From an uncultured virus (IMG/VR IMGVR_UViG_3300022178_000020) (Duplodnaviria; Heunggongvirae; Uroviricota; Caudoviricetes): a stretch of 64,000 bases of DNA. Where the stretch lies: the IMG/VR virus record IMGVR_UViG_3300022178_000020; one strand, written 5' to 3'. The translations under genes and the position numbers were made by a program. Positions 8,857 to 25,463 of this stretch are shown here, in pieces. Under the pieces are notes generated by a model. It worked only from the letters and a program-made list of their open reading frames with translations, was not told the origin of the DNA and did not search any database. Every line of letters starts with the position of its first letter. The first letter of the stretch is position 1.

Positions 8857-10131
8857 TTATACCCTCCCTAAAGAACCATAGGTGCTACCTGCGTCAACTT
8901 TTGTATTAAATTTAAATTCTTTGAACGTGTCCAAAATACACTCTATTGCCTCTTTCTCGGATTTATCCACATCTAAAAGAAATGAATCGTATGTGTAGTG
9001 AACTATACGGGTATTTTTATTCTTTAATATAGATATAATTTTCTCTAAAATAAGAACATTATAATACGTTTCCGTATTTTGAAGTATGTAATTAAACAGT
9101 TTCTCCTTCTTCATATCCGTTTTAAAGACGTATCCAGACTTACAGACAACTTCTTCTTTCCTACTTATATCATCTATATATTTTCCTACTCGCTTAAAGA
9201 ATTCTAAGTCTTTGTAGTTATCAAATACTCCTCCGTACAGCTGTTTGAACGTTAGTTCTTTAGCTTTCTTATAATCTACTCCGTACATATCAGCAAACGC
9301 TTGGTGTATGTCCTCGTGTTCGAATTCATAATCTACTAATTGTGCCGCTAGTGTAGGGTGGTAAGCACTAATGTCGATCTCCATTAAGAAATCATTATCG
9401 GGAATAAACGCATCTCTACAACCCGATTTTTTATCTAAAGCAGCATAATTAATTCCCCCAAATGAGTTTGAAGGTCTCGTAGTTGTCGTTTTTAGGTTAA
9501 ACTGGGAGTAAGTCCAATCTCGTTCTACACCAAAATGTTCTTCAAAGAGTTTAGGATCAACTCTAATTCCTTCTGCTTCAATCCAATAGAATACATTTGT
9601 CGCCTTGTGGTTGTAAAACTCAAAGTGCGGTGGTTTATCCATAGCGAACACATGTTTAACAGCGTTGTATAGCGTTTCACAGCGTTCATAATGCTTTACT
9701 ATCGGTATGATGCTACCTATGTTGGCTATGTGGGGGTATTTGTTATAGAAGAAATCGTGGCACGGGAACGAGTCGGGTATATCTGTAGGAGATATGAAAT
9801 GTATGTCGCTAAGCTGCTTTAAAGGTACTATATGGAGAAATTCCTTTCTATCTCTTACAAATATTTCTTTAAATCCTCCTAATAATTCGTATACTTTAGA
9901 TGAGTCACATGAAGTAGCTTCACTATGATTTATATTAAGAATAAAACCTTTTCTATGATTAATTTCTCTAATATAGAATCCTACTATACCCCTTAAAAAG
10001 GGGTGTTGATTGTCATTAGAGAAAAGGGGTTCAACGAATACTCGTTTAAATCCCTTTTCTTTAAATTCGTTTAGTTGTTTGTTATTTTCTATGAGCCAAA
10101 ACACATCACAAGATACGATCGATTCCTTCAA
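8857..10131 (-). CDS. Short, divergent family A DNA polymerase (start may be GTG at 10104)
   Basis: TTTTRPS, motif A EIDISAYHP, motif B KKAKELTFKQLYGG, LFNYILQ, motif C HYTYDS. Confidence 0.8.
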   Translation of the reverse strand: MKESIVSCDVFWLIENNKQLNEFKEKGFKRVFVEPLFSNDNQHPFLRGIVGFYIREINHRKGFILNINHSEATSCDSSKVYELLGGFKEIFVRDRKEFLHIVPLKQLSDIHFISPTDIPDSFPCHDFFYNKYPHIANIGSIIPIVKHYERCETLYNAVKHVFAMDKPPHFEFYNHKATNVFYWIEAEGIRVDPKLFEEHFGVERDWTYSQFNLKTTTTRPSNSFGGINYAALDKKSGCRDAFIPDNDFLMEIDISAYHPTLAAQLVDYEFEHEDIHQAFADMYGVDYKKAKELTFKQLYGGVFDNYKDLEFFKRVGKYIDDISRKEEVVCKSGYVFKTDMKKEKLFNYILQNTETYYNVLILEKIISILKNKNTRIVHYTYDSFLLDVDKSEKEAIECILDTFKEFKFNTKVDAGSTYGSLGRV

Positions 10132-12409
10132 TTACCAAGTCAGGAGTAATAGTCTCTATTTTATACCAATCTTCCATTAAATTTATTTTTTGGAAGGGAT
10201 ACCAATTCCAATTTGAAACATCCATTCTATGGGTGCTAAAATATCCTGAAGGGGAGGTGTCATTGTATATTCGGGTGGTGTTTGATTTGAACTCACAATG
10301 ATTTGGGTGGGTAAATGAAGAGATTAAAACTGTAGGGATGTTTAGAGCCCATGCTATCCAGGAAAGACCAGAACTAATACTAACATGGAATTCTGCCCCA
10401 CTAATTATAGACATTACTTCATCTAGGGGTTTGTTGTGGAAGTGGTAATCACATTGAGGGGAACTATTCATAAAATTTTTAATTCCAAAATTTTTATGTT
10501 GGTCTACTGCTATTACTTTATATCCTTTGTTTTGTAGATGCTTTACAATTTGTTCCCAACCCCCAGGATAATTCCAATATTTGCATTGTGATGTAGATTG
10601 GATAGCAATAGTTACGTATTTTTCTTTTATGGGGGAAATATTGGGAGATTTAAATCTAGGTATAATTTCTTTATATTCTAGTCCTAAAATATCAGATGAT
10701 GTTTTTTGAAGAGGTTGGGTTTTAATATTATGGGGGTGATAAGAAGTATTAATTTTATCATTTTCATAATACCACCCTATTCCATAAGAAGTATGTAAAT
10801 CTCCTACAGGGGTGCCAGGGGATACAAATTCTATTTGGGGATATTTTGACTGGAACCAATCGTTATGGAATGTAGAGCAAGTGACTTTGCAGTTATGTTT
10901 TTTTCTAAATTCTTCTACATAAGGGAACCATGCAATGGTGTCACCTATAGATTTACTATCTAAGTGTATGTAAACTTTTTTATCAGCTAGATCGAAAATA
11001 TGCTCATGAATTTTAGTATCGTTTTCCCAAATTTCTACTCTCCATTTTATAAAAGATTTATAATTGGGGGAAGTCCACATATTATTGGTAATAATACCCT
11101 CATGGATTAACTTATTATTAATATCATTATAAAATTTAATTTGGTAATCTTGATTTAGGGGGCCTAGAATTTCACACTTTGCTCCATCTGTAAAGTCAAG
11201 GAGAATTTCGTTTTTAAGCTTTTTAGTTTTAAAATCTTTTAAGGTATCTATGCCTATTTCTGCTACCTTATCCCAATTAAAATCTCGATGGATTAGTTTT
11301 GCTTCTTCTAAAGCCCGTTTTTTATGGTCTGTGTAGTTTTCAAAAGCGTCTCTCATTACACGTGCTAAGTCTTGGAAATCGGGTTCATAGTAATTACCTA
11401 CTGAAGAATTAAAATGGTTATAATCAGCATCCATTACGGGTTTTTCTCCTAATATCTTTACAGGAAGACCCTTTCCTTCAGCAAATTCCATTTGACCACT
11501 ACATGCTGAATAGATTGAAGGAGTACCACAAGCCATAGCCTCAATTAAGGGTAAATTCCATCCCTCACTTCTAGCACAGGATACAAATACATGACCATTT
11601 TTTAAATAAGTAATATAATCTTCTCTTGAGGGAAAATGTTTAATTTTTATTCTTTTATCAACAAGCCCATTGTGTTCTAAACGTTTTTCTGTAGTGCCGT
11701 GATTATCGCCTGAGAAGGGGTTATCAACTGATATAATTAAGTCTATAGGTTCGGATGGGTCAAATTCTTTAAGAAAAGTCTCTATAATTTCTTTAGTAGA
11801 TTTTCTGTAGTCCCATCTCCCAAATAAAACAAATTTAAATCTTTTATCTTTGTAATCTAGTTTTTTAGAAAAAGGAGAAGGTTTAAAAGTATTAATATCT
11901 ACCCCTTCAGGTACTACTTTAACCATATCAGGATCTGCTCCTTGTTTTATAGTACATTCAGCTTGCCATTTTGAGGGAACCCATATTTGATCATACTCCA
12001 ATAACTTTTTAAAAAAATGAGGAGGTTGGAGGGTAGATTCCCAAACATTATAGGCAATTTTGGGTTTGTTATAAGAATTATAAAAGTAGTGATGGTCTGT
12101 TTCTACTAAAACTAAATCAATATCTTGCTCAAACTTATTTTTATAATTGGGGTATATGGGAAATTCATCTCGTGTGTTCTTTCCCGTAGTTAGGGTTTGT
12201 TCTACTAATAATTTTTTATCTAAATTATCAAGGTATAATTCACCGTTGTGGGGTTCATCATTATTTCCTTTCCAACTTTTTCCTACAGTAAAATTACGAA
12301 TTTTTAAATCTACTTTTTCAGATAATTTTCTAAAAAAATCTCTAGAATGGTGATTATATCCGGTGGTTCCTATGTAAGAACAATGAACCTTTAATTTAGG
12401 TAATGACAT
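10106..12409 (-). CDS. Two-domain glycosyltransferase: N-terminal GT4 fused to a C-terminal TibC/Aah-type (autotransporter heptosyltransferase-like) protein O-glycosyltransferase
   Basis: GT4: FGRWDYRKS, SEGWNLPLIEAMACGTP. C-domain: SIGDTIAWFPYVEEF, YVTIAIQSTSQCKYWNYPGGW, ISSGLSWIAWA, VLISSFT. Confidence 0.82.
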   Translation of the reverse strand: MSLPKLKVHCSYIGTTGYNHHSRDFFRKLSEKVDLKIRNFTVGKSWKGNNDEPHNGELYLDNLDKKLLVEQTLTTGKNTRDEFPIYPNYKNKFEQDIDLVLVETDHHYFYNSYNKPKIAYNVWESTLQPPHFFKKLLEYDQIWVPSKWQAECTIKQGADPDMVKVVPEGVDINTFKPSPFSKKLDYKDKRFKFVLFGRWDYRKSTKEIIETFLKEFDPSEPIDLIISVDNPFSGDNHGTTEKRLEHNGLVDKRIKIKHFPSREDYITYLKNGHVFVSCARSEGWNLPLIEAMACGTPSIYSACSGQMEFAEGKGLPVKILGEKPVMDADYNHFNSSVGNYYEPDFQDLARVMRDAFENYTDHKKRALEEAKLIHRDFNWDKVAEIGIDTLKDFKTKKLKNEILLDFTDGAKCEILGPLNQDYQIKFYNDINNKLIHEGIITNNMWTSPNYKSFIKWRVEIWENDTKIHEHIFDLADKKVYIHLDSKSIGDTIAWFPYVEEFRKKHNCKVTCSTFHNDWFQSKYPQIEFVSPGTPVGDLHTSYGIGWYYENDKINTSYHPHNIKTQPLQKTSSDILGLEYKEIIPRFKSPNISPIKEKYVTIAIQSTSQCKYWNYPGGWEQIVKHLQNKGYKVIAVDQHKNFGIKNFMNSSPQCDYHFHNKPLDEVMSIISGAEFHVSISSGLSWIAWALNIPTVLISSFTHPNHCEFKSNTTRIYNDTSPSGYFSTHRMDVSNWNWYPFQKINLMEDWYKIETITPDLVIEGIDRIL

Positions 12410-12468: not shown

Positions 12469-14646
12469 TTATAGTTCTACCCAATCGTTGGATGGGTTAA
12501 AGAATACTAGGTTTGTGCCTACTTTATATCCCATTATTCTAACTACATCACCCGCTGCCGTAGGGGCTGTTGTAGTTAATCTTCCTGTAGCTGTTGATAG
12601 ATATACTACATCTCCTACTGACCCTCCAGGATCAGCAAATACATAGACAATGCCACGTATTACCATACCAGTATTAGAGTTGGTTGAGGTTGATACTCCC
12701 ATAAATCCTTTAGAAGTTGATACGGCATCGGCATCTGAGAAAGTCCAAGCAGAACTACCAAGATAATAAACTCCTCCTGCTACAACTGTGTTACTATAAA
12801 AAGTAACTGTTTCAGCATTAAATCCCTTATCGCCTGCAGATGATGCAGGACCCGCTGAGGATGCTATTTCACCTACTTCTAAAACAGATCCATTACCTGA
12901 AATGGTACTTGTAACAGTAATATCTCCGACAACAGACATAGTTGAGCCATTAAATGTAAAATTAGATTCAGCATTTAGAGTACCATTACCTACTGCTGTT
13001 ACTACTCTATTATTAGCATCATTTGCTATTGTAGGAGAAGTACCTGATGTACCTGAAGTACCTGAGGAACCGTCAGCACCGCTAGTTCTAGTTTTTACGT
13101 TACCACTACTATCTACTGTAAGGAATGTAGTTTCACTACCCACAGGAATAGAAGTAAATTGAGCATTTGATGCTGTTATAAATCCTCCAGCTTTAATATT
13201 ATCGGATACTTCTAATTTTTCACTAGGTGAAGTAGTACCTATACCAAAATTACCTGTAGTATTGATATAACTATCCTTTGAGGCATAAGTTCTAAATACT
13301 ATTTTTTCTGTATCATTATCAAAGATACGAAGTTCCCCAGCATTTGTATCAGGAGGTGCTTGTGTATCATTTCCAATTTTAATAATATTTTCATCCGCTT
13401 CATTTTTTATAAAAATTCGAGGATTTTGAAAACCCCCCATTTCTATACTAGAACTAACAGCTATTCCAATATTTTGGCTATCGTTAGCAAAAAGTCCGTG
13501 CCCTATTTCAATAGCTTTTAAATCCCTTTCAGGGAGGTTAGGTCCATCTACTTCCAATACTAAAGACCCATATTGAAATGATGATTGTTCTCCTAATACT
13601 CTAGAATATATAGCTCCGGTACTTCCGGATACTAATAATTTACTTCCACTAAGTGCAGTATCTTCTATAACAAATGCTAATCTACTAGATTCAGCTCCTT
13701 CAGTAACGGAGCCACTAGGTACTGATAATATAAAATCAGGGGCCTCTTTACTAGAACCTTGTCCTGTTTTAAGTTCAAAAGTAGAAGCAGGTTTATCAGT
13801 TCCTATGCCTATTCTCGCATCATCCCCTGATTTGGAAATAAAAAGGACTTCTTTAAGAACTTCATTAGTTTCTCCTACTAAAAATTTTATAGCTCTACTA
13901 GCTGTATCATAATTTATTTGGGCTGAGGCGCTTACAGGTTGTAGGGATCCTGAGATTGAAGCACTAGCGTCTGTATTAAAAAAATATATGTTGGGGACAG
14001 GGGTAAGTAATACTCCACTTCGAGGGTCGGGGGAGGATGAAGTAACACTACTTAAAGTAATTTGACCCCCTCCTATTACAAGATTAGGACCATGGTCATT
14101 CCCTCCTCCTCCGGTAGGTTCATGAGTATCGTCACCATCAGATCCTGAGGGGTAAATTGTAATGTCTTTATTGTAAATTATATAATTATTAGGGTATTCA
14201 CTTTGAGGTAGAACTCCTAATAAGAATATAGGTTTTTCTGTTTCTTGGGGGGTTACAAACGTGTATGCTAAGGATCCTTGTTCTCTAAATCCTGAGGTAG
14301 CATTAATTCCAGTTAAACCGTTGTAATCTAAGGGTTGGTTTGATAAAAAGAGAGAGGTGTTAGTAGTAATAAACCCATTATCCGTTACTCCTTGGAGAGT
14401 ATATTCGACATCTGCTACTCCACTACCGGCATCACTGACGTCACCATTTACAAAATTAAGTGTAGTTGTAGGGTTAACAGTAGCTGTAATAGGGGTAGTT
14501 TTGGTAATTAAAGTTCCTCCTCCTCCAATAGAACTTGTTAAGGCAAAACTACCACTTGAAGCGTCCCATATAACCGCTCTATCTACAGAGGGAAATTCGG
14601 TAGGATCTAGTTCTACTTTTACATTATAATTAGTTTTTGTAGCCAT
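12469..14646 (-). CDS. Tail fibre/spike-like virion protein
   Basis: IGIGTDKP and GNFGIGTTSPSEKLEV fibre repeats, short GSSGTSGTSG segment, C-terminal GDVVYLS...P...GDVVRIMGY domain. Confidence 0.7.
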   Translation of the reverse strand: MATKTNYNVKVELDPTEFPSVDRAVIWDASSGSFALTSSIGGGGTLITKTTPITATVNPTTTLNFVNGDVSDAGSGVADVEYTLQGVTDNGFITTNTSLFLSNQPLDYNGLTGINATSGFREQGSLAYTFVTPQETEKPIFLLGVLPQSEYPNNYIIYNKDITIYPSGSDGDDTHEPTGGGGNDHGPNLVIGGGQITLSSVTSSSPDPRSGVLLTPVPNIYFFNTDASASISGSLQPVSASAQINYDTASRAIKFLVGETNEVLKEVLFISKSGDDARIGIGTDKPASTFELKTGQGSSKEAPDFILSVPSGSVTEGAESSRLAFVIEDTALSGSKLLVSGSTGAIYSRVLGEQSSFQYGSLVLEVDGPNLPERDLKAIEIGHGLFANDSQNIGIAVSSSIEMGGFQNPRIFIKNEADENIIKIGNDTQAPPDTNAGELRIFDNDTEKIVFRTYASKDSYINTTGNFGIGTTSPSEKLEVSDNIKAGGFITASNAQFTSIPVGSETTFLTVDSSGNVKTRTSGADGSSGTSGTSGTSPTIANDANNRVVTAVGNGTLNAESNFTFNGSTMSVVGDITVTSTISGNGSVLEVGEIASSAGPASSAGDKGFNAETVTFYSNTVVAGGVYYLGSSAWTFSDADAVSTSKGFMGVSTSTNSNTGMVIRGIVYVFADPGGSVGDVVYLSTATGRLTTTAPTAAGDVVRIMGYKVGTNLVFFNPSNDWVEL

Positions 14647-14666
14647 TGATTATAAATATAAATAGT

Positions 14667-16112: not shown

Positions 16113-19100
16113 TTACAAATCGTTAAAAATTCTAAATGTTAATGAATGCTTGTAGAATAAGCTATAATCAAGAGTATTGTATACTTTAAATCTTAGAATG
16201 TTGTTTGTAACATCAACATCCTCTGCTTGAATGTATATTTGTTCCAAGTTTAGTCTGGATTTAGTGTATTCAGGAACTAAGTATGGGATCGTAAGGTTTA
16301 ACACTACATCATCGGTGGATGTTGTTCCTCCTATATCGGCCCCATCAATTGTGATTGCTGTAGTTGTTGAATATCCACTTCCCCCATCTGTTACTATTAT
16401 TGAAGTAGCAAGTCCTGTATTTCCTATTACAACTGTGGCTTGTGCTCCTGTTCCTCCTCCTGTAATACCAACAGGACCATAGGACCCTTGGGTCTTATTT
16501 CCGGGGTCTGTGGCTACTATACTTATTAATTGGGTTTGAGCAATTTCAGTAGTTACACTTTGTGAAACGAATGTTCCATCTACTTCAGTAATAGTAAAAT
16601 CATATAGATAGTTTTTACTTAAAAATGCCCAAAGGGTACCTGTAAATTTCAATGTAGCACCTGCTCTGATGAAGGGGTCAGCAACGGTTCCTGTTCCGCT
16701 ATTATTTCCTTTTAATATAACCATTCCATCAAATTCAACTACATCGAATGTGCCAAAGCTAAGCCCCGTATTAAAAATATCAGTTCCTGGGTTACCCACG
16801 GATCCTGCAGGTACACTATCTAATATAGACCAATTTTCTGTGATTGATGTACCTGAAGTACCTGATGAGCCTGATGTGCCTGATGAACCACTAGTACCTG
16901 AAGAACCTGATGTGCCTGAAGAACCAGATGTACCCGAAGCTCCCGTCATACCTGAAGAGCCTGAAGTACCTGAAGAACCTGAAGTGCCTGAGGAACCACT
17001 AATACCTGAAGTACCTGAAGAGCCTGAGGTACCTGATGAGCCACTAGTACCTGAAGAACCTGAAGTACCTGATGAACCTGATGTGCCTGAAGCACCTGTC
17101 ATACCTGAGGAGCCAGAAGTGCCTGAAGAGCCTGAGGTGCCTGAGGAACCACTTGTACCTGATGAACCACTTATACCCGAAGTACCTGATGAACCACTTG
17201 TACCCGAAGAACCATCTATACCTGAAGTGCCTGATGAACCTGAAGTACCCGATGAACCATCTATACCTGAGGTACCCGATGAACCACTTGTACCTGAAGA
17301 ACCGTCTATACCTGAAGTACCTGATGAACCACTTGTGCCTGAAGAACCATCTATACCTGATGTACCTGATGAACCTGAAGTACCTGAAGAACCGTCTATA
17401 CCTGAAGTACCTGATGAACCACTTGTACCTGAAGAACCGTCTATGCCTGAAGTACCTGAAGAACCTGAAGTACCCGATGAACCGTCTGTGCCTGATGAAC
17501 CTGATGAACCTGAAGTACCGTCTATACCTGAAGTACCTGATGAACCACTTGTACCTGAAGAACCATCTATACCTGAAGTGCCTGAAGAACCTGAAGTACC
17601 TGAAGAACCATCTATACCTGATGTACCTGATGAACCACTTGTACCTGAAGAACCATCTATACCTGAAGTACCTGATGAACCACTTGTACCTGATGAACCA
17701 TCTATACCTGAGGTACCTGATGAGCCACTTGTACCTGATGAACCGTCTATACCTGATGTACCTGATGAACCTGAGGTACCCGATGAACCGTCTATACCTG
17801 ATGTACCTGATGAACCTGAAGTACCTGAAGAACCACTTGTTCCTGAGGTGCCGCTAGAACCTGAAGAGCCACTAGTACCCGAAGAGCCTGAAGTACCTGA
17901 GGCGCCTGTCATACCTGATGAACCGGATGTGCCTGAAGAGCCGTCTATACCTGCAATCCCTGAAGTACCCGATGAACCACTGGTGCCTGATAAACCACTT
18001 GTTCCTGAAGAACCTGAAGTGCCTGATGAGCCTGATGTACCTGAGGAACCACTAGTACCTGAAGAACCTGAAGTACCTGAAGCCCCTGTCATACCTGAAG
18101 AACCCGAAGTACCTGAAGAGCCTGAAGAGCCTGAAGTACCTGAAGAACCTGAGGTGCCCGATGAACCATCTATACCTGAAGTACCTGAAGTGCCTGAAGA
18201 ACCTGATGTACCTGAAGAACCTGATGCTCCTGGGGCTCCTGCTAGGTTTATACACCATGTATAAGAGGTAATTGAAGACCAAGACCCTGTGGAAGAAGTA
18301 ACATTAATTTCAATATTTCCAGTTCCTGAGTTATAATTGTTTACGGTACCCTCAATAAAATTAGAGGAATCAATTGCTAATATTATGTTCTGCCCCGCAG
18401 TATAAGCTAATCCGGATCCTATAGCAATAGTAAGAGGGGATGAAGGAGGGTTTGAAATTGTAAGGTTATTAACACATGCAGCATAGATATCTCCATCGGT
18501 TCCTGAAGCACCTGATGAGCCTGAGGTACCTGATGAGCCTGATGTGCCTGAAGAACCACTAGTACCTGAAGAGCCATCTATACCTGAAGTGCCTGAGGAG
18601 CCTGAGGTACCCGATGAGCCGGATGTGCCTGAAGCACCTGTCATACCTGATGAACCTGAAGTGCCTGAAGAACCTGAAGTGCCTGATGAACCCGAAGTGC
18701 CTGAAGTGCCTGAAGTACCTGATGAACCGTCTATACCTGAAGTGCCTGAAGAACCTGAAGTACCTGAGGCACCTGTCATACCTGAAGAACCTGAAGTGCC
18801 TGAAGTGCCCGATGTGCCAGAGGAACCCGATGTGCCTGATGAACCTGAAGTACCTGATGAACCTGAAGTACCTGAAATACCCGATGAACCTGAGGAACCA
18901 CTAGTACCTGAAGAACCACTAGTGCCTGAAGAACCTGAAGTACCCGAAGCTCCGGTCATACCTGAAGAGCCTGAGGTGCCTGATGAACCTGAAGTGCCTG
19001 AAGAACCATCAATACCTGAGGTGCCAGAAGAACCACCGGTACCTGAAGAACCTGAAGTACCTGAAGAACCACTAGTACCCGAAGAACCGCTAGTACCTGA

Positions 19101-22100
19101 TGAACCATTAATACCTGAAGTACCCGAAGAACCACTGGTGCCTGAAGAACCTGATGTACCTGATGAACCTGAAGTACCTGAAGCACCTGCCATACCCGAG
19201 GAACCTGAGGTACCTGAAGAGCCACTTCCACCTGTAGCTCCTGAGGTACCTGAAGAGCCACTAGTGCCTGAAGAACCACTAGTACCTGAAGAACCTGATG
19301 AACCTGCAGTACCTGATGTACCTGAAGAACCTGATGTTCCTGAGGCTCCTGTCATACCTGATGAACCCGAAGTGCCTGAAGAACCACTAGTACCTGAAGA
19401 GCCTGAGGTGCCTGATGAGCCACTTTCACCTGTTGCTCCTGATGAACCTGATGTACCCGATGAACCTGAAGTACCTGAAGAGCCGTCTATACCTGAAGTA
19501 CCTGATGAACCACTTGTACCTGAAGAACCATCTATACCTGAAGTACCTGAAGAACCACTAGTACCTGAGGAACCTGAAGTACCTGAGGAACCTGAAGTAC
19601 CTGAAGCTCCTGTCATACCTGAAGAGCCTGAGGTACCTGAGGAACCTGATAAACCTGATGTACCTGATGTACCTGAAGAACCACTGGTGCCTGAAGAACC
19701 ACTAGTACCTGATGAACCCGAAGTGCCTGAAGAACCTGATGTACCTGAAGAACCTGATGTTCCTGAGGCTCCTGTCATACCTGAAGAACCTGATGTGCCT
19801 GAAGAACCACTTATGCCTGAAGTACCTGATGAACCTGCAGCACCTGAAGTACCCGAAGAACCATCTATACCTGATGTTCCTGAAGAGCCTGAGGTACCTG
19901 AGGAACCTGATACACCTGATGTACCTGATGTACCTGAAGAACCACTAGTACCTGAGGAGCCACTGGTGCCTGAAGAACCTGATGTACCTGAAGAACCTGA
20001 TGTGCCTGAAGCTCCAGTCATACCTGAAGAACCTGATGTACCTGATGAACCCGATATACCTGATGTACCTGATGTACCTGAAGAACCAGATATACCTGAA
20101 GAGCCTGATGTACCTGAAGAACCTGAGGTACCTGATGAACCATTTATACCTGAAGTACCGGATGAACCACTAGTACCTGAAGAGCCTGATGTACCTGAAG
20201 AACCTGAGGTGCCCGATGAACCATCTATACCTGAAGTGCCTGATGAGCCTGATGTACCAGAGGTTCCTGATGAACCCGATGCCCCTGGGGCTCCTGCTAA
20301 GTTTAAACACCATTCTATAGTACCTGAGAATGTCCCCGTGTAAGTTAAATTAATTAATACTATTACCCCTGAATTGGGAGTATAACTATCTACTGTTCCT
20401 TCAATAAATTGGGTAGCACTATGTGCTAATATTACATTCTGTCCTGCGGTATAAGCTAAATCAGTAGCAAAAGTTAAAGTAAGTGATGGTGGAGGGGTAC
20501 CACTAGTAATAGTTTGATTTGCACAATCCGCGTATACATCACCATCCGCTCCAGCAGCTCCTGAAGAACCTGAAGTGCCTGAAGTGCCTGAAGAACCATC
20601 TATACCTGAAGTGCCTGATGAGCCTGATGTGCCTGATGAACCACTAGTACCTGAAGAACCTGATGTACCTGAAGCTCCAGTCATACCTGAAGAACCTGAT
20701 GTACCTGATGAACCCGATATACCTGAAGTACCTGATGAACCTGCAGTACCTGATGTACCTGAAGAACCTGAAGTGCCTGAGGCTCCTGTCATACCTGATG
20801 AACCCGAAGTGCCTGAAGAACCACTAATACCTGAAGAACCCGAAGTACCTGATGTACCTGATGAACCTGATGTACCCGATGAACCTGAGGTGCCTGAAGA
20901 GCCGTCTATACCTGAAGTACCTGATGAACCACTTGTACCTGAAGAACCATCTATACCTGAAGTACCTGAAGAACCACTAGTACCTGAGGAACCTGAAGTG
21001 CCTGAAGAACCTGATGTGCCTGAGGCACCTGTCATACCTGAGGAACCTGAGGTACCTGAAGAGCCACTTTCACCTGTAGCTCCTGATGTGCCTGAAGAAC
21101 CACTAATGCCTGAAGAGCCACTGGTGCCTGAAGAACCTGAAGTACCTGAAGAACCTGAAGTACCTGAAGCACCTGTTATACCCGAGGAACCTGAAGTTCC
21201 TGAAGAGCCACTTTCACCTGTAGCTCCTGAGGTGCCTGATGAACCTGACGTACCTGATGAACCTGATGTGCCTGATGAGCCATCCTCACCTGTAGCCCCT
21301 GAAGTACCTGACGAACCTGATGTACCTGAAGAACCACTAGTGCCTGAAGAACCATCTATACCTGAAGTGCCTGAGGAGCCTGAAGTACCCGATGAGCCTG
21401 ATGTGCCTGAAGAACCACTATCCCCTGTAGCTCCTGATGTACCCGAGGAACCACTAGTACCCGAAGAACCAGAAGTACCTGAGGCTCCAGTCATACCTGA
21501 TGAACCACTAGTACCTGATGAACCGCTAACACCTGAAGAGCCTGAAGTGCCTGAAGTGCCTGAAGAACCTGAAGTACCTGATGAACCGCTAAAACCTGAG
21601 GAGCCACTAGTACCTGAAGTACCTGATGAACCACTAGTACCTGATGAACCACTAGTACCTGATGAGCCTGAAGTACCCGATGAACCTGATGTACCAGAGG
21701 TACCTGATGAACCACTAATACCTGATGAGCCTGAAGTACCCGATGAACCTGATGTACCTGAAGAACCACTAGTACCTGAAGAACCTGATGTACCCGAAGT
21801 ACCTGAGGAGCCTGAAATACCCGATGAGCCTGATGTACCTGAAGTTCCCGATGAGCCCGAAATACCTGAGGAGCCTGATGTACCCGAAGCACCTGTCATA
21901 CCTGATGAACCGGAGGTGCCTGAAGAGCCACTAATACCTGATGAACCACTGGTGCCTGCAGAACCACTAGTACCTGATGAACCTGAAGTACCCGATGTAC
22001 CCGATGAACCTGATGTACCAGAGGTACCTGATGAACCACTAATGCCTGATGAGCCTGAAGTACCTGATGAACCTGAGGAACCACTAGTACCTGAGGAACC

Positions 22101-25100
22101 TGATGAGCCTGAAATGCCTGAACTACCTGAAGTTCCTGAAGAACCTGAAACACCTGAGGTGCCTGAAGAACCTGAGCTGCCTGAAGTACCTGATGAACCT
22201 GATGTGCCTGAGGCCCCTGTCATACCTGATGAACCACTAGTACCTGAAGAGCCTGATGTACCCGAAGTACCTGAGGAGCCACTAATACCTATGGCGCCTG
22301 AGGTGCCTGAGGTGCCTGATGAACCTGATGAACCTGAGGTGCCTGAGGAACCACTAATACCTGATGTGCCTGAAGAACCTGAAGTACCTGAGGCACCTGT
22401 CATACCTGAAGAACCTGATGTGCCTGAAGAACCACTTATGCCTGAAGTACCTGATGAACCTGCAGCACCTGAAGTGCCTGATGAACCTGAGATACCTGAT
22501 GTTCCTGAAGAACCTGAGATACCCGATGTACCCGAAGAACCTGATGCTCCGGGGGCTCCCGCTAGGTTTATACACCATTGTTGAGAACCACTAAAAGTCC
22601 CTGTAGAAGAGGTAACTATAATACTAATGCCCCCTGTTCCCGAATTATAGGACCCAACCGTTCCTTCAATTAGGTTATTAACATTACCTGGGGTAGCCAA
22701 TATTATACTTTGTCCCGTTGTATAAGCTAATCCAATTCCTATAACAAGATTAAGGGTACCCGAAGCGGGGGAAGTGAGGGATTGGGTACTACAATTGGCG
22801 TATATGTCACCATCCTCACCTGATGAACCCGAAGTACCCGAAGAACCACTAGTACCTGAAGAACCTGATGTACCTGAAGAACCTGATGTTCCTGAGGCAC
22901 CTGTCATACCTGAAGAACCTGATGTGCCTGAGGAACCTGAAGTACCTGATGAGCCAGCTGTACCTGAGGTACCAGATGAGCCTGATGTGCCTGAAGAGCC
23001 ACTAGTACCTGAAGAACCACTAGTGCCGGAAGAACCACTAGTACCTGAAGAGCCACTAGTACCTGAAGAGCCACTAGTACCTGAGGAACCCGAGATACCA
23101 CTAGTGCCTGAGGAACCACTAGTACCTGATGTACCTGAGGAACCACTAATACCCGATGTACCTGAAGAACCTGAAGTGCCAGATGAACCCGAAGTGCCTG
23201 AAGTTCCTGAAGAGCCATTTATCCCAGAGGTGCCGGAAGAACCTGAGGTACCCGAAGATCCTGAAGTGCCAGATGAACCATCGATACCCGAAGTACCTGA
23301 TGAACCTGATGTGCCCGAAGCCCCCGTCATTCCTGAGGAACCTGAGGTGCCTGATGATCCTGAAGAGCCGGCGGTGCCTGAGGTACCTGAAGAACCACTA
23401 GTACCTGAAGAACCTGAGGTACCTGAAGAACCATCTATACCTGAGGTACCTGATGATCCTGAAGAGCCGGAGGTGCCTGAGGTTCCTGAAGAACCACTAG
23501 TACCTGAAGAACCTGAGGCACCTGAAGAGCCTGATGTACCAGAGGTACCTGATGAACCACTAATGCCTGATGAGCCTGAAGTACCTGATGAACCTGATGT
23601 ACCTGAAGAACCACTAGTGCCTGAAGAACCACTAGTACCTGCAGAACCGCTAGTACCTGAAGAGCCTGAAGTACCTGAAGTACCCGAAGAACCGTCTATA
23701 CCTGAGGTACCCGACGATCCTGATGAACCTGAGGTGCCTGAAGAACCTGATGTGCCTGAAGAACCACTAGTACCTGCCGAACCGCTAGTACCTGAAGAGC
23801 CTGAAGTACCTGATGCACCCGTCATACCCGAAGAACCTGAAGTACCTGATGAACCTGCAGTACCTGAAGAGCCATCTATGCCTGAAGTGCCCGATGAACC
23901 TGAAGTGCCTGATGAACCACTAATACCTGATGAACCACTAGTACCTGAAGTGCCTGATGAACCACTAGTACCTGATGTGCCTGATGAGCCACTAGTACCT
24001 GAAGAGCCACTGATGCCTGATGATCCCGATGTGCCTGAGCTACCTGAGGTGCCTGAGGAGCCTGAAAAACCTGAAGTGCCTGATGAGCCGGATGTACCTG
24101 ATGTACCTGATGAGCCTGAAGAACCACTAGTACCTGAAGAACCTGAGGTACCTGAAGAGCCATCTATACCTGAAGTACCCGAAGAACCACTAGTACCTGA
24201 GGAACCATCTATACCTGAGGTGCCTGAGGAACCTGAGGAACCTGAGGTACCTGACGAACCTGATGAGCCTGATGAACCCGAGGTACCTGAGGCACCTGTC
24301 ATACCTGAAGAACCTGAAGTACCTGATGAGCCTGATTCTCCAGATGTACCTGAAGTACCTGATGAACCTGATATTCCAGATGAACCTGAAGTACCTGATG
24401 AACCTGATGTGCCTGAAGAACCTGAAGAACCTGAAGTGCCTGAGGAACCGTCTATGCCTGAGGTACCTGAAGAACCTGAAGAACCTGAAGTACCAGATGA
24501 ACCTGAAGTACCCGATGAACCCGATATACCTGAAGTGCCCGATGAGCCTGAGGTGCCAGATGAGCCTGAGGAGCCAGATGTGCCCGAACTACCTGAAGTA
24601 CCTGAAGAACCGGATGTACCTGAAGCACCTGTCATACCTGATGAACCGCTAGTACCCGATGAACCCGATGATCCTGAAGTGCCTGAAGTGCCTGATGATC
24701 CTGCTGCTCCTGGAGCTCCCTCTAGGTTTATACACCATTGTAGAGAAGTAGGGGTAGGCCAATTCCCTGTTTGGGAAGTAATATCGATTTCTATATCCCC
24801 ATTTGATGAGTTATATGAATTAACTATTCCTACTATATACTGTGTGGCACTATATGCTAGTATTACAGTTTGACCTACTGTATATGCTAGTCCTGCGGCT
24901 ATGTTTATATTAAGGGGGTCTCCAGGGGGATCGGTAATGGTTTGAGTGCTACAATCGGCATATATGTCACCATCTTCACCAGATGAACCCGAAGTGCCTG
25001 AAGTACCTGAAGTACCTGAGGAGCCTTCGGCACCCGATGATCCTGATGTACCTGATGAGCCGCTTCCTCCTCCTCCTGTTCCGTCATTATAATCTAATAC

Positions 25101-25463
25101 AATACAAACTTCTTCCTCAGCATTTAATGGAAAATTACCAGATTGAGCACTAGCTCCTGCAGTTATTGTAAAAGATATATAATTAGTATTATCCGTTACA
25201 GCTGTGTAAGGAAAAACTGCGTAGTTAGCAGGATATTTTTTACTGTGTATTGTTAAATTACCTTTAGTACTATCTTTTAGGTAATCCGATATGTTAATAT
25301 TATTAAGGTCCGATATGTTAATATCAACACGAGTTGTATTTCTAACATCTAAACTACTATAAAGACTTAATCTACCAGGGGAGGGGATTGTAGAGGGAGT
25401 TGAAACCTTGTAAGGTATACAAAATGCTCCTAAATCTCTATCTATAATAAATTTTTGTGCCAT
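16113..25463 (-). CDS. Giant collagen-like (Gly-X-Y, X/Y mostly Ser/Thr) fibre protein, 3116 aa, with four repeated globular knob domains
   Basis: Gly at every third residue through long GSS/GTS/GID/GMT/GAS runs; non-repetitive N- and C-termini; ATATTTATA motif upstream at 25482-25490. Confidence 0.85.
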   Translation of the reverse strand: MAQKFIIDRDLGAFCIPYKVSTPSTIPSPGRLSLYSSLDVRNTTRVDINISDLNNINISDYLKDSTKGNLTIHSKKYPANYAVFPYTAVTDNTNYISFTITAGASAQSGNFPLNAEEEVCIVLDYNDGTGGGGSGSSGTSGSSGAEGSSGTSGTSGTSGSSGEDGDIYADCSTQTITDPPGDPLNINIAAGLAYTVGQTVILAYSATQYIVGIVNSYNSSNGDIEIDITSQTGNWPTPTSLQWCINLEGAPGAAGSSGTSGTSGSSGSSGTSGSSGMTGASGTSGSSGTSGSSGTSGSSGSSGTSGSSGTSGISGSSGTSGSSGTSGSSGSSGTSGIDGSSGTSGSSGSSGTSGSSGTSGSSGISGSSGTSGTSGESGSSGTSGSSGMTGASGTSGSSGSSGSSGTSGSSGSSGTSGIDGSSGTSGSSGTSGIDGSSGTSGSSGTSGSSGSSGTSGTSGSSGTSGFSGSSGTSGSSGTSGSSGISGSSGTSGSSGTSGTSGSSGTSGTSGSSGISGSSGTSGSSGTSGIDGSSGTAGSSGTSGSSGMTGASGTSGSSGTSGSAGTSGSSGTSGSSGTSGSSGSSGTSGIDGSSGTSGTSGSSGTSGSAGTSGSSGTSGSSGTSGSSGTSGSSGISGSSGTSGTSGSSGASGSSGTSGSSGTSGTSGSSGSSGTSGIDGSSGTSGSSGTSGSSGTSGTAGSSGSSGTSGSSGMTGASGTSGSSGTSGIDGSSGTSGSSGTSGSSGTSGINGSSGTSGTSGSSGTSGSSGTSGISGSSGTSGTSGSSGTSGISGSSGTSGSSGTSGSSGTSGSSGTSGSSGTSGSSGTSGSSGTSGTAGSSGTSGSSGTSGSSGMTGASGTSGSSGTSGSSGTSGSSGTSGSSGEDGDIYANCSTQSLTSPASGTLNLVIGIGLAYTTGQSIILATPGNVNNLIEGTVGSYNSGTGGISIIVTSSTGTFSGSQQWCINLAGAPGASGSSGTSGISGSSGTSGISGSSGTSGAAGSSGTSGISGSSGTSGSSGMTGASGTSGSSGTSGISGSSGTSGSSGSSGTSGTSGAIGISGSSGTSGTSGSSGTSGSSGMTGASGTSGSSGTSGSSGSSGTSGVSGSSGTSGSSGISGSSGSSGTSGSSGSSGTSGSSGISGSSGTSGTSGSSGTSGTSGSSGTSGSAGTSGSSGISGSSGTSGSSGMTGASGTSGSSGISGSSGTSGTSGSSGISGSSGTSGTSGSSGTSGSSGTSGSSGTSGSSGISGSSGTSGTSGSSGTSGSSGTSGSSGTSGSSGTSGTSGSSGFSGSSGTSGSSGTSGTSGSSGVSGSSGTSGSSGMTGASGTSGSSGTSGSSGTSGATGDSGSSGTSGSSGTSGSSGTSGIDGSSGTSGSSGTSGSSGTSGATGEDGSSGTSGSSGTSGSSGTSGATGESGSSGTSGSSGITGASGTSGSSGTSGSSGTSGSSGISGSSGTSGATGESGSSGTSGSSGMTGASGTSGSSGTSGSSGTSGSSGTSGIDGSSGTSGSSGTSGIDGSSGTSGSSGTSGSSGTSGTSGSSGISGSSGTSGSSGMTGASGTSGSSGTSGTAGSSGTSGISGSSGTSGSSGMTGASGTSGSSGTSGSSGTSGSSGTSGIDGSSGTSGTSGSSGAAGADGDVYADCANQTITSGTPPPSLTLTFATDLAYTAGQNVILAHSATQFIEGTVDSYTPNSGVIVLINLTYTGTFSGTIEWCLNLAGAPGASGSSGTSGTSGSSGTSGIDGSSGTSGSSGTSGSSGTSGSSGTSGINGSSGTSGSSGTSGSSGISGSSGTSGTSGISGSSGTSGSSGMTGASGTSGSSGTSGSSGTSGSSGTSGSSGTSGTSGVSGSSGTSGSSGTSGIDGSSGTSGAAGSSGTSGISGSSGTSGSSGMTGASGTSGSSGTSGSSGTSGSSGTSGSSGTSGSSGTSGTSGLSGSSGTSGSSGMTGASGTSGSSGTSGSSGTSGSSGTSGIDGSSGTSGSSGTSGIDGSSGTSGSSGTSGSSGATGESGSSGTSGSSGTSGSSGTSGSSGMTGASGTSGSSGTSGTAGSSGSSGTSGSSGTSGSSGTSGATGGSGSSGTSGSSGMAGASGTSGSSGTSGSSGTSGSSGTSGINGSSGTSGSSGTSGSSGTSGSSGTGGSSGTSGIDGSSGTSGSSGTSGSSGMTGASGTSGSSGTSGSSGTSGSSGSSGISGTSGSSGTSGSSGTSGSSGTSGTSGTSGSSGMTGASGTSGSSGTSGIDGSSGTSGTSGTSGSSGTSGSSGTSGSSGMTGASGTSGSSGTSGSSGTSGIDGSSGTSGSSGTSGSSGTSGSSGASGTDGDIYAACVNNLTISNPPSSPLTIAIGSGLAYTAGQNIILAIDSSNFIEGTVNNYNSGTGNIEINVTSSTGSWSSITSYTWCINLAGAPGASGSSGTSGSSGTSGTSGIDGSSGTSGSSGTSGSSGSSGTSGSSGMTGASGTSGSSGTSGSSGTSGSSGTSGSSGTSGLSGTSGSSGTSGIAGIDGSSGTSGSSGMTGASGTSGSSGTSGSSGSSGTSGTSGSSGTSGSSGTSGIDGSSGTSGSSGTSGIDGSSGTSGSSGTSGIDGSSGTSGSSGTSGIDGSSGTSGSSGTSGIDGSSGTSGSSGTSGIDGSSGTSGSSGTSGIDGTSGSSGSSGTDGSSGTSGSSGTSGIDGSSGTSGSSGTSGIDGSSGTSGSSGTSGIDGSSGTSGSSGTSGIDGSSGTSGSSGTSGIDGSSGTSGSSGTSGIDGSSGTSGSSGTSGISGSSGTSGSSGTSGSSGTSGSSGMTGASGTSGSSGTSGSSGTSGSSGTSGSSGTSGISGSSGTSGSSGTSGSSGMTGASGTSGSSGTSGSSGTSGSSGTSGSSGTSGTSITENWSILDSVPAGSVGNPGTDIFNTGLSFGTFDVVEFDGMVILKGNNSGTGTVADPFIRAGATLKFTGTLWAFLSKNYLYDFTITEVDGTFVSQSVTTEIAQTQLISIVATDPGNKTQGSYGPVGITGGGTGAQATVVIGNTGLATSIIVTDGGSGYSTTTAITIDGADIGGTTSTDDVVLNLTIPYLVPEYTKSRLNLEQIYIQAEDVDVTNNILRFKVYNTLDYSLFYKHSLTFRIFNDL
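16850..25080. repeat. Degenerate 9-bp coding tandem repeat array (cctgaagta / cctgatgaa type) broken by four knob domains
   Basis: Visible directly; synonymous variation between units. Confidence 0.95.

What the first reader, a model, noticed from the sequence alone, without database searches (positions are those of the whole stretch)
10106..25463. Candidate phage-encoded virion O-glycosylation system: GT4-TibC/Aah fusion beside a giant Ser/Thr collagen fibre
Seen: a 767-aa enzyme fusing a GT4 domain (~11230-12409) to a domain with TibC/Aah signatures (~10106-11210). It sits at the end of a fibre cluster whose main gene carries roughly 2400 residues of GSS/GTS triplets; 12469..14646 has a short copy of the same repeat. 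Known: TibC/Aah-family enzymes heptosylate Ser residues of autotransporter adhesins, and glycosylated Thr can replace hydroxyproline in stabilising a collagen triple helix (vent-worm cuticle collagen). Inference: the TibC-like domain primes Ser/Thr and the GT4 domain extends the glycan, giving a mucin-like fibre in which sugars stabilise a proline-free helix and may serve adhesion or shielding. Bacteroidota LPS cores often lack heptose, so the donor may be a different sugar.
Basis: partly seen in the sequence, partly recalled or inferred. Interest (0 to 1): 0.88.

Follow-up and report, generated by a model that had tools for sequence, protein, structure and literature searches.

The report
Phage TibC-like enzyme beside serine-collagen fibre
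An uncultured phage, probably of marine Flavobacteria, encodes a giant proline-free collagen-like fibre and, a few genes away, a two-part sugar-transferase related to the enzyme that sugar-coats E. coli adhesins, so the phage probably sugar-coats its own fibre, though no sugar has been seen.

Summary
The gene at 10106-12409 (- strand) encodes a 767-aa fusion. Its GT4 domain has an invariant EX7E motif. Its C-terminal domain passes NCBIfam's TibC/Aah model (258 bits, cut-off 200) and matches the TibC crystal structure sequence (E 7e-48). The gene at 16113-25463 encodes a 3116-aa protein with 810 Gly-X-Y triplets, 638 of them GSS or GTS and none with a run of proline. Three independent contigs reproduce it.

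TibC-like genes travel with Gly-[Ser/Thr]-Ser repeat genes:
- 21 of 48 viral records picked by the repeat alone carry one, including 5 of 6 near-complete records.
- 38 of 55 bacterial or archaeal loci picked by the enzyme alone carry the repeat, against 0 of 22 control loci.
- 0 of 18 capsid-related phage contigs without the repeat carry the enzyme.

The enzyme is not a classical autotransporter heptosyltransferase. It lies in a separate, repeat-linked clade. It has lost all four iron-finger cysteines and lacks the adenine-contacting arginine. The likely host family shows no ADP-heptose enzyme, so the donor sugar is unknown.

No glycan, target or helix stabilisation has been shown. This scan noted the same module on other DNA (73 notes). 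My literature searches found no description of it.

The parts
10106..12409 (-). P0001, a 767-aa bifunctional glycosyltransferase (GT4 domain plus TibC-like GT9 domain). It overlaps the next gene (8857-10131) by 26 bases.
11234..12409 (-). GT4 (retaining-type) domain, residues 1-392. The EX7E motif E282...E290 is invariant in 38 aligned relatives.
10109..11233 (-). TibC-like domain, residues 393-767. The catalytic Asp (D490) and T606, K610 and W684 are kept. The Arg-286 equivalent is V665. The iron-finger cysteines are replaced by P720, Y723 and Y737, and the tail has no Cys.
12469..14646 (-). P0002, a 725-aa tail fibre with five Gly-X-Y triplets. Its last 116 residues are 38% identical to the annotated tail fiber protein of Flavobacterium phage immuto.
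14667..16102 (-). Three small ORFs (87, 136 and 240 aa) of unknown function between the two fibre genes. No family match. They were matched (at 100%) only in L002 and L003, contigs of the window's own phage; no other locus gave a hit.
16113..25463 (-). P0003, a 3116-aa collagen-like fibre protein.
25071..25463 (-). P0003 N-terminal non-repeat domain (residues 1-131).
22803..24719 (-). Gly-X-Y segment 1 (residues 249-887, 213 triplets). A short 12-triplet run precedes it at 24963-25070.
20535..22559 (-). Gly-X-Y segment 2 (residues 969-1643, 225 triplets).
18486..20294 (-). Gly-X-Y segment 3 (residues 1724-2326, 201 triplets).
16845..18239 (-). Gly-X-Y segment 4 (residues 2409-2873, 155 triplets).
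24720..24962 (-). First of four ~81-aa two-cysteine spacer domains that interrupt the Gly-X-Y runs. The others lie at 22560-22802, 20295-20534 and 18240-18485.
16116..16844 (-). P0003 C-terminal non-repeat domain (residues 2874-3116). It was found only in contigs of the same phage.
25491..28853 (-). Upstream neighbours: 198-aa and 815-aa proteins without family matches, and a 99-aa baseplate wedge subunit (phrog_7145). They place the fibre cluster at the end of the tail module.

Best explanation
The cluster is a phage-encoded fibre-glycosylation module. In the infected cell, the TibC-like domain of P0001 would transfer a sugar from a nucleotide sugar onto serine hydroxyls of the Gly-[Ser/Thr]-Ser triplets of the fibre protein P0003, and perhaps onto the five triplets of P0002. 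This domain is an inverting GT-B enzyme with Asp-490 as the base. The fused GT4 domain, a retaining enzyme with an EX7E motif, would then add a second sugar. The product would be a very long, densely O-glycosylated collagen-like fibre with four globular nodes, about 0.7 micrometre long if it is a straight triple helix.

Shown here: the domains, their intact catalytic residues, the repeat, and the genomic pairing.

Inferred: the target, the order of the two steps, the triple helix, and any role of the sugars in stability, adhesion or shielding.

The donor is unknown. It is probably not ADP-heptose in this phage.
For: 1. Enzyme identity. TIGR04414 scores 257.7 bits against a cut-off of 200. TibC structures match at E 6.6e-48 with the single sequence and 4.4e-69 with a profile, whereas LPS heptosyltransferases reach only E about 1e-3.

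2. Catalytic residues named in the TibC paper (passages read) are conserved in 120 fusion proteins: Asp-110 equivalent 120/120, Thr-226 120/120, Lys-230 117/120, Trp-305 120/120. The GT4 motif E282/E290 is invariant in 38 sequences.

3. Pairing, starting from the repeat. A pattern for GSSGTSGSSGTS in viral contigs gave 58 contigs. A TibC-like domain lies within 10 kb in 11 of them. In whole records, 21 of 48 searched score over the cut-off, and 5 of 6 records that are at least 80% complete do so.

4. Pairing, control. Among 23 contigs of at least 30 kb chosen by capsid similarity, TIGR04414 occurs in 2, and both carry the repeat. It occurs in 0 of the 18 contigs without the repeat. The nearest cultured relative, Flavobacterium phage immuto, has neither. 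Cultured Microcystis phage Mel-JY01 has both.

5. Pairing, starting from the enzyme in cellular genomes. 38 of 55 loci (30 of 35 loci of at least 15 kb) have a Ser/Thr-rich, proline-free Gly-X-Y ORF within 10 kb. None of 22 control loci does. In the Methylobacter chromosome the two genes are adjacent among housekeeping genes.

6. The partner repeat has the same make-up everywhere. Position Y is Ser in 73% of cellular triplets, 86% of phage triplets and 88% of this window's triplets.

7. Sister phages place the fusion in cassettes with collagen-modifying types of enzyme: 2OG-Fe(II) oxygenase, GT25, GT2, FkbM methyltransferase and sulfotransferase. These sit next to collagen genes rich in GPK and GPT.

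8. Synteny collagen-fibre-GT is kept in relatives whose GT is 75-82% identical.
Against: - No glycan, glycopeptide or enzyme activity has been observed for any member of this clade.
- The pairing is not absolute. One complete 268-kb phage record (G064) and one 84%-complete record (G005) have the repeat but no TIGR04414 match.
- 10 of 13 further contigs that carry the fusion show no Ser/Thr repeat pattern in the record. They are 7-50% complete. They include an 82-kb contig, and a 58.7-kb contig where the neighbour is a proline-type collagen with few Ser/Thr.
- Related phages share gene order by descent, so the contig counts are not independent events.
- P0001 lacks the iron finger. In TibC the finger is needed for the dodecamer, for substrate contact and for activity.
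- The gene sits at the border with the replication genes, and its timing of expression is unknown.
- The window holds other possible targets: a YadA-head-repeat protein at 44356-46752 and a DUF285 protein at 39577-41598.
Confidence: 0.6

Rival explanations
1. The enzyme glycosylates a different virion protein, not the collagen-like repeat. Candidates are the fibre P0002, the YadA-head-repeat protein (44356-46752) or the DUF285 repeat protein (39577-41598). The collagen gene would be only a syntenic neighbour.
For: - Classical TibC and Aah act on beta-helical adhesins, not on collagen.
- The window encodes adhesin-like repeat proteins.
- In L018 the fusion lies downstream of YadA_head/Peptidase_S74 fibres with no collagen in the locus.
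- 10 of 13 further fusion-bearing contigs show no Ser/Thr repeat.
Against: The only feature that recurs beside TibC-like genes across phages, bacteria and archaea is the Gly-[Ser/Thr]-Ser repeat. This includes the minimal two-gene pair in Methylobacter. YadA-like or DUF285 proteins were not seen as constant neighbours, though I did not count them systematically.
Confidence: 0.13
2. The enzyme acts on the host envelope (LPS core, capsule or a host surface protein) during infection, for example to block superinfection or to alter receptors. It has nothing to do with the virion.
For: - GT9 and GT4 families are mostly envelope-polysaccharide enzymes (Pfam names).
- PHROGs files the GT4 part under 'moron, auxiliary metabolic gene and host takeover'.
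- In L023 and L026 the fusion is flanked by nucleotide-sugar enzymes rather than fibres.
- The gene abuts the replication module.
Against: - The domain matches the protein-directed TibC far better than the LPS heptosyltransferases: E 4e-69 against about 1e-3.
- The match covers TibC's N-terminal barrel region.
- Envelope modification does not explain the co-occurrence with the repeat genes.
Confidence: 0.1
3. The repeat is not a collagen triple helix. It would be a flexible, mucin-like Ser/Thr linker. The enzyme still glycosylates it, giving a bottle-brush rather than a sugar-stabilised helix.
For: - There is no proline and there are almost no charged residues in X or Y. These are the usual stabilisers of bacterial collagens (recalled).
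- No model or experiment here shows a helix.
Against: Gly is kept at every third position through runs of up to 225 triplets. This holds despite diverged synonymous codons and many X/Y substitutions (GID, GAS, GIS, GMT), which points to selection on the period. Sister phages have ordinary proline-type collagens in the same genomic position.
Confidence: 0.12
4. The TibC-like domain of this subclade is a decayed, inactive remnant after loss of the iron finger, and only the GT4 domain works.
For: In TibC, mutating any one of the four cysteines abolished heptosylation. Here all four are gone.
Against: - The catalytic and phosphate-binding residues are invariant.
- The segment that replaces the finger is itself conserved across the subclade, which is about 35 of the 120 fusions.
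- The subclade still sits beside Ser/Thr collagens in L005, L006, L007, L011 and L020.
Confidence: 0.05

Closest known systems
TibC-TibA and Aah-AIDA-I of E. coli (bacterial autotransporter heptosyltransferases, BAHT; TIGR04414; PDB 4RAP/4RB4; PMC4358343)
   Same: The architecture is the same: N-terminal barrel plus GT-B lobes. The catalytic Asp and the Thr, Lys and Trp of the sugar-phosphate site are shared. Both are cytoplasmic enzymes presumed to hyper-glycosylate serines of a long repetitive surface protein encoded next door.
   Different: - It lies in a separate clade, split from two classical BAHTs by a 100/99 branch.
- It gets less than half the HMM score of a classical BAHT: 258 against 604 bits.
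- The partner is a Gly-Ser/Thr-Ser collagen-like protein, not a beta-helical autotransporter.
- It is fused to a GT4 domain.
- The iron-finger cysteines and the adenine-contacting Arg are absent in this window's enzyme.
- The donor is unknown.
BclA, the collagen-like exosporium glycoprotein of Bacillus anthracis
   Same: It is a microbial collagen-like region whose hydroxy-amino acids carry O-linked oligosaccharides and which forms surface filaments. [quoted passage not shown] The rest is recalled.
   Different: BclA repeats are GPT-type with proline (recalled). Its glycosyltransferases are not TibC-like as far as I recall. BclA is a spore protein, not a virion protein. The GPT-rich collagens of sister phage L015 come closer to it.
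Mimivirus L230 (lysyl hydroxylase plus glucosyltransferase acting on viral collagen-like proteins; PMC9614988, passages read)
   Same: A virus-encoded bifunctional enzyme that modifies the virus's own collagen-like proteins. The 2OG-oxygenase, GT25 and GT2 genes beside the fusion in sister phages L015 and L018 resemble this kit.
   Different: L230 works through hydroxylysine. The window's fibre has no Lys in its triplets and the window has no oxygenase gene. The enzyme families differ: GT25-like plus PLOD-like against GT4 plus GT9.
Riftia pachyptila cuticle collagen
   Same: Glycosylated threonine, rather than hydroxyproline, is associated with triple-helix stability (review passage and the title of Mann et al. 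1996).
   Different: It is an animal collagen with proline. There the Thr is at Y (recalled), whereas here Ser is at Y and Ser/Thr at X. Nothing about stability was tested here.
Virion glycosylation in mycobacteriophages (Freeman et al. 2023, Cell Host Microbe)
   Same: Phage-encoded glycosyltransferases that decorate virion proteins. I saw the paper only as reference 80. It is not held, so its content is recalled.
   Different: There the targets are capsid and tail-tube proteins (recalled). No collagen-like repeats and no TibC-like enzyme are involved.

Membership tests
BAHT (TibC/Aah autotransporter O-heptosyltransferases, TIGR04414) | Score over the curated cut-off of the family model | tested here: met
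   257.7 bits against a cut-off of 200. A classical BAHT scores 604 bits and other repeat-linked homologues score 307-310.
BAHT (TibC/Aah autotransporter O-heptosyltransferases, TIGR04414) | Catalytic base Asp-110 and the donor-binding residues Thr-226, Lys-230 and Trp-305 | tested here: met
   They map to D490, T606, K610 and W684. In the fusion family they are conserved in 120/120, 120/120, 117/120 and 120/120 sequences. Residue roles come from PMC4358343.
BAHT (TibC/Aah autotransporter O-heptosyltransferases, TIGR04414) | Arg-286 contacting adenine N1, the basis of ADP-sugar specificity | tested here: not met
   The equivalent is V665. Across the 120 fusions it is Val 99, Thr 12, Ile 4, Ala 3 and Arg 2. 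It is Arg in 2 of 2 classical BAHTs and in 11 of 52 other rows.
BAHT (TibC/Aah autotransporter O-heptosyltransferases, TIGR04414) | Iron finger: four Cys (339, 342, 358, 370) | tested here: not met
   The equivalents are P720, Y723 and Y737, and the tail has no Cys. The finger is kept in about 83 of 120 fusions and in all other repeat-linked rows that aligned well, so the loss is specific to this subclade.
BAHT (TibC/Aah autotransporter O-heptosyltransferases, TIGR04414) | Beta-hairpin thumb with two hydrophobic tip residues (Phe-265, Val-266), and a dodecamer | tested here: inconclusive
   The region is present without a deletion. The tip aligns to N645-F646 (mapped by hand). In the family these positions are Gly/Asn and Val/Phe/Thr. 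The oligomeric state is not testable here.
BAHT (TibC/Aah autotransporter O-heptosyltransferases, TIGR04414) | Encoded next to its autotransporter substrate | tested here: not met
   No autotransporter is in the window. Classical loci L316 and L317 have one directly downstream.
BAHT (TibC/Aah autotransporter O-heptosyltransferases, TIGR04414) | Placement inside the classical BAHT clade | tested here: not met
   In an IQ-TREE of 52 rows, the 2 classical BAHTs plus one Schwartzia row are split from the 49 repeat-linked and phage rows by a branch with 100/99 support. Two poorly aligned rows, L293 and L306, were left out.
BAHT (TibC/Aah autotransporter O-heptosyltransferases, TIGR04414) | Heptosyl transfer from ADP-heptose to serine | not testable with these tools
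   Indirect evidence only. The ADP-heptose adenylyltransferase model TIGR02199 scored over its cut-off in 0 of 61 genomes of the family of a Winogradskyella MAG and in 0 of 14 phage records.
GT4 glycosyltransferases (Pfam Glycos_transf_1) | Family model over the cut-off, and an EX7E motif | tested here: met
   PF00534 scores 44.9 bits against a cut-off of 26.4. E282 and E290 are invariant in 38 sequences. The PDB gives only generic GT4 matches (5i45, 6kih, 2r60).
Collagen triple-helix repeat proteins (Pfam PF01391) | Uninterrupted Gly-X-Y period over long runs | tested here: met
   Runs of 213, 225, 201 and 155 triplets. PF01391 scores 999.8 bits.
Collagen triple-helix repeat proteins (Pfam PF01391) | Actual trimeric triple-helix formation | not testable with these tools
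   No fold could be predicted. The usual stabilisers, Pro and charged pairs, are nearly absent: Pro is 1 of 810 residues at X and 4 of 810 at Y.
Serine-rich-repeat adhesin glycosylation (GtfA/GtfB type, GT4) | A GT4 enzyme that primes Ser-rich repeats with GlcNAc, with a GtfB partner and accessory Sec genes | not tested
   Considered from memory only as an alternative priming route. No specific GtfA-type family appeared among the matches.

The most novel reading that the evidence does not exclude
A sister clade of the autotransporter heptosyltransferases has switched substrate to collagen-like Gly-[Ser/Thr]-Ser chains. Together, enzyme and substrate define an undescribed class of 'glyco-collagen', found in many phages and as a two-gene module in bacteria and archaea. 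In this class O-glycosylated serine takes the stabilising role of hydroxyproline. In this window the system is reduced to one metal-free fusion enzyme that uses a non-ADP donor to build a disaccharide coat on a fibre about 0.7 micrometre long.
Probability: 0.3. Interest if true: 0.82.

Novelty: new variant of a known kind. Interest (0 to 1): 0.63.

Why it matters
If true, protein O-glycosylation by TibC-type enzymes is not a speciality of enterobacterial adhesins. It would be a widespread way of building sugar-coated collagen-like fibres on phage particles and on bacterial surfaces.

That would give a second microbial route, besides BclA and Mimivirus L230, to collagen without hydroxyproline. 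It would explain how proline-free Gly-Ser-Ser chains could fold. It would also identify a new layer of phage-host recognition or shielding in abundant aquatic myoviruses.

Test systems exist: the cultured Microcystis phage Mel-JY01, and the two-gene pair in Methylobacter isolates. The iron-finger-less, GT4-fused form in this window is a compact candidate for in-vitro glycosylation of designed collagen peptides.

Tried and rejected
- Reverse search with the fibre's C-terminal domain found only 4 loci, all the same phage. It gave no test of co-occurrence.
- The promoter and terminator scan of 8000-26500 found fewer sites than the shuffles, so it says nothing about operon structure.
- ESM Atlas look-ups of a spacer domain and of the C-terminal domain gave only collagen-repeat viral clusters or scores of 0.83 and below.
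- The heptose pathway was sought with TIGR02199. No match over the cut-off was found in 14 phage records; four sub-threshold nucleotidyltransferase-like hits scored 59-96 bits.
- The Mel-JY01 'cytidylyltransferase like protein' matched no Pfam or NCBIfam family.
- The stringent six-triplet pattern in three methanotroph genomes hit only one distant locus in one genome. The partner next to the enzyme contains Asn and Leu triplets and escapes that pattern, so this count was not used.
- The first literature query (TibC + phage) returned only unrelated uses of the letters 'TIBC'.
- A comparison of P0002 with the end of P0003 failed on a frame error and was not repeated.
Which enzymes, if any, sit beside their collagen genes remains open.
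- DNA glycosylation was considered and rejected. There is no similarity to phage DNA glucosyltransferases in any search, and the best matches are protein- and LPS-directed enzymes.

Full report
**What the window is.** All long ORFs lie on the - strand. PHROG and Pfam matches give the layout of a contractile-tailed phage:
- terminase (56965-58536), portal, protease, major capsid protein (49211-50848);
- sheath (34576-36291), tube, baseplate hub and wedge;
- the fibre cluster discussed here;
- a replication block: gp32-like SSB, UvsX-like recombinase, exonuclease, DnaB-like helicase and ribonucleotide reductase.

The capsid protein is 56% identical to that of Flavobacterium phage immuto and 47.5% identical to that of Microcystis phage Mel-JY01. 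The last 116 residues of fibre P0002 are 38% identical to the immuto tail fiber protein. In the enzyme tree the nearest non-phage rows come from Flavobacteriales MAGs. A Flavobacteriia host is therefore likely, but it is inferred. The window's own assembly is not held; the nearest record is a 62.5-kb fragment judged 42% complete.

**The observation.** It is confirmed in all parts.
- P0001 (10106-12409) is 767 aa.
  - Its N-terminal half is a GT4 glycosyltransferase: Pfam Glycos_transf_1 matches residues 182-310 and phrog_2170 matches residues 85-384. The EX7E glutamates E282 and E290 are invariant in 38 relatives.
  - Residues 394-741 pass NCBIfam's TibC/Aah model (257.7 bits, cut-off 200). 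They align to TibC of PDB 4rap/4rb4 at E about 1e-47, or 4e-69 with a family profile.
- P0003 (16113-25463) is 3116 aa.
  - It has a 131-aa head, a 12-triplet run, and four Gly-X-Y segments of 213, 225, 201 and 155 triplets.
  - The segments are separated by four ~81-aa two-cysteine domains. A 243-aa C-terminal region follows and itself holds one more run of four triplets.
  - Of 810 triplets, 322 are GSS and 316 are GTS. Ser fills 709 of 810 Y positions. Pro fills 1 X position and 4 Y positions.
- The gene is real. Three contigs from different samples give the same length with at most 5 residue differences. Synonymous codons are well mixed, which argues for old repeats held in period by selection.
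- P0002 carries five such triplets.

**Is the C-domain a TibC/Aah enzyme?** I read passages of the TibC structure paper (PMC4358343) and mapped its named residues.
- The catalytic base and three donor-binding residues are kept: D490, T606, K610 and W684. They are nearly invariant in 120 fusion proteins.
- Two defining features are missing.
  - Arg-286 hydrogen-bonds adenine N1 and explains ADP-sugar use. Here it is Val, as in 99 of 120 family members.
  - All four iron-finger cysteines are replaced (P720, Y723, Y737, and no Cys in the tail).
- The cysteine loss is specific to the window's subclade, about 35 of 120 fusions. The other fusions, ten other phage TibC-like domains and nearly all cellular homologues keep the four cysteines.
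- The segment that replaces the finger is conserved within the subclade, so the domain does not look decayed.
- Two classical BAHTs were fetched with their autotransporters. They keep both features, score 604 bits against the same model, and are separated from all 49 other rows by a 100/99 branch in a 52-row tree. Two badly aligned rows were left out of that tree.
- The enzyme is therefore TibC-like in fold and chemistry, but it is not a member of the autotransporter-linked family in the strict sense.

1. From the enzyme.
   - The fusion is common: 2426 hits, and the best 120 are mostly 759-796 aa (one of 977), 53-82% identical apart from one row at 74% over half the query, from marine and freshwater sources.
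   - Thirty viral loci were fetched. Fourteen have at least 4 kb upstream.
   - Of these, 6 have a Ser/Thr-type Gly-X-Y ORF (two are the window's own phage and two are near-duplicates), 3 have a proline-type collagen, and 5 have none.
2. From the repeat alone.
   - A TibC-like domain lies within 10 kb in 11 of them.
   - In whole records, 21 of the 48 searched carry one. I submitted 50 of the 58 contigs and 2 were not held.
   - Among the 6 records at least 80% complete, 5 have it.
   - Some of these enzymes are ~700-aa fusions with a diverged GT4 domain, and others are stand-alone ~400-aa proteins.
3. Control within the lineage.
   - Of 80 capsid-related loci I submitted the 24 contigs of at least 30 kb; 23 were searched.
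   - TIGR04414 occurs in 2 and the repeat in 5. Both enzyme-bearing contigs have the repeat, and none of the 18 repeat-less contigs has the enzyme.
   - Of the three contigs with 'repeat only', two are cut at or just after the collagen gene. One of these two is the window's own phage. The third is a complete 268-kb genome that truly lacks the enzyme.
   - Phage immuto has neither gene. Mel-JY01 has both.

**Cellular genomes.** Following a lead from earlier notes of this scan, I searched one genome per species with a profile of the domain.
- The search returned 55 loci, mostly from MAGs but also from Methylobacter and Methylomicrobium isolates.
- A Ser/Thr-rich, proline-free Gly-X-Y ORF of at least 12 triplets lies within 10 kb in 38 of 55 loci, and in 30 of 35 loci of at least 15 kb.
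- It lies in 0 of 22 control loci: 20 arbitrary 20-kb pieces of the same three methanotroph genomes, and the two classical BAHT loci.
- In the Methylobacter chromosome a 281-aa protein with a signal-peptide-like start and GT[S/N] triplets sits directly upstream of the enzyme gene, among GrpE, Hsp70, MiaB-like and PhoH genes. This is not a prophage.
- The partner repeats share one signature. X is Ser or Thr. Y is Ser in 73% of cellular triplets and 86% of phage triplets.
- This recurring minimal pair is the strongest argument that the repeat is the substrate and that the TibC-like enzyme is the protein-directed, priming transferase.

**Sister cassettes.** In more distant phages (fusion 48-55% identical) the gene lies just upstream of the sheath and tube genes, inside larger cassettes.
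- These hold 2OG-Fe(II) oxygenases, a GT4+GT25 protein, GT2 proteins (one fused to an oxygenase), an FkbM methyltransferase, a sulfotransferase, and nucleotide-sugar epimerase, aminotransferase and deacetylase genes.
- In L015 they follow two collagen genes whose commonest triplets are GPT and GPK.
- An oxygenase plus GT25 or GT2 beside Lys-bearing collagen recalls Mimivirus L230 and animal collagen glycosylation (passages of PMC9614988).
- This fits a general theme of phage collagen-fibre modification. It also shows that the fusion is not tied exclusively to Ser/Thr repeats. L024 has a collagen rich in GPI, GAI and GPR with few Ser/Thr and no Ser/Thr pattern in 58.7 kb.

**Donor.**
- The window has no sugar-nucleotide gene, but it covers less than half of the genome.
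- The ADP-heptose adenylyltransferase model TIGR02199 scores over its cut-off in the three methanotroph genomes.
- It scores over the cut-off in 0 of 61 sampled genomes of the family of a Winogradskyella MAG and in 0 of 14 phage records, Mel-JY01 included.
- With Arg-286 replaced, ADP-heptose is unlikely here. GDP-heptose routes were not tested, and the host is inferred.

**Mechanism proposed.** The TibC-like domain would put the first sugar on Ser of the triplets in the cytoplasm, and the GT4 domain would extend it. The glycosylated chains would then trimerise into a fibre.
- At 0.286 nm per residue (the textbook rise of a collagen helix), 2430 residues would span about 0.7 micrometre, interrupted by four nodes. 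This length is inference.

**Novelty.**
- No paper in the searched library holds 'collagen-like', 'heptosyltransferase' and 'phage' together.
- 'Autotransporter heptosyltransferase' with 'bacteriophage' gave two unrelated papers.
- Phage virion glycosylation is known from mycobacteriophages. I saw that paper only in a reference list, and it is not held.
- This scan noted the same module before on other DNA: 73 notes in at least 65 genomes.
- New in this window are the iron-finger-less subclade, the adenine-Arg replacement across the fusion family, the 3116-aa four-node fibre, and the negative heptose-pathway survey.

**Limits.**
- No structure prediction was available.
- Contig counts are not phylogenetically independent.
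- Most contigs are fragments, so an absence in them means little.
- The neighbourhoods of the two repeat-bearing records without the enzyme were not examined.

Noticed in passing
window 111-785 and 2497-3123: A GIY-YIG homing-endonuclease gene lies just downstream of the ribonucleotide reductase large-subunit gene (785-2494). A 208-aa methyltransferase-domain ORF sits between the large- and small-subunit genes.
   Followed up: no
window 47444-49119: Two metabolic-looking genes lie inside the structural block, between PhoH and the capsid gene. One is a phosphatidylserine-decarboxylase-like protein (PF02666). The other is an arginine dihydrolase/dimethylargininase-like protein.
   Followed up: no
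window 39577-41598 and 44356-46752: Two further adhesin-like virion candidates: a 673-aa protein with five DUF285 repeats (366 bits) and a 798-aa protein with YadA-head repeats. They are possible alternative glycosylation targets.
   Followed up: partly
window 16669-24873, + strand: ORFs of 531-699 aa lie on the strand opposite the collagen gene. They are by-products of the repeat's codon make-up, not genes. G+C rises to 48-50% here against about 34% elsewhere.
   Followed up: partly
L001 (Microcystis phage Mel-JY01, PP395634.1) 1-3052: An open frame on the + strand runs from the first base of the record to 3049. It holds 606 residues of Ser/Thr-rich Gly-X-Y, while the record annotates two opposite-strand hypothetical CDSs (1-651, 739-2298) over it. 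The collagen-like gene probably spans the record's arbitrary start and is mis-annotated. The 1226-aa 'methyltransferase FkbM' is the GT4-TibC-like fusion with an insert.
   Followed up: partly
L015 61-13182 and L018 368-12289 (viral contigs): These are large collagen-modification cassettes. L015 has two GPT/GPK-rich collagens, a GT4+GT25 protein, a 2OG-Fe(II) oxygenase and an FkbM methyltransferase. L018 has a sulfotransferase, two oxygenases (one fused to GT2) and an FAD amine-oxidase-like protein. In both, the GT4-TibC-like fusion follows, and after it (in L015 after one further 307-aa ORF) the tail sheath gene.
   Followed up: partly
L261 8974-11158 (Methylobacter sp. chromosome): A minimal two-gene module lies among housekeeping genes. 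It consists of a 281-aa protein with a signal-peptide-like start and GT[S/N] triplets, directly followed by a stand-alone TibC-like gene. A second GTS-repeat locus lies about 0.49 Mb away in the same genome.
   Followed up: partly
viral records G064 (268,739 bases, complete) and G005 (147,929 bases, 84%): These phage records carry Ser/Thr collagen-like repeats but have no TIGR04414 match. They are exceptions to the pairing. Their collagen neighbourhoods were not examined.
   Followed up: no
window 8857-10131: A 424-aa ORF overlaps the end of the glycosyltransferase gene by 26 bases. It has only a weak PHROG match to part of a DNA polymerase family (E 8e-8). It is conserved at 81-86% identity directly downstream of the fusion in relatives.
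   Followed up: partly
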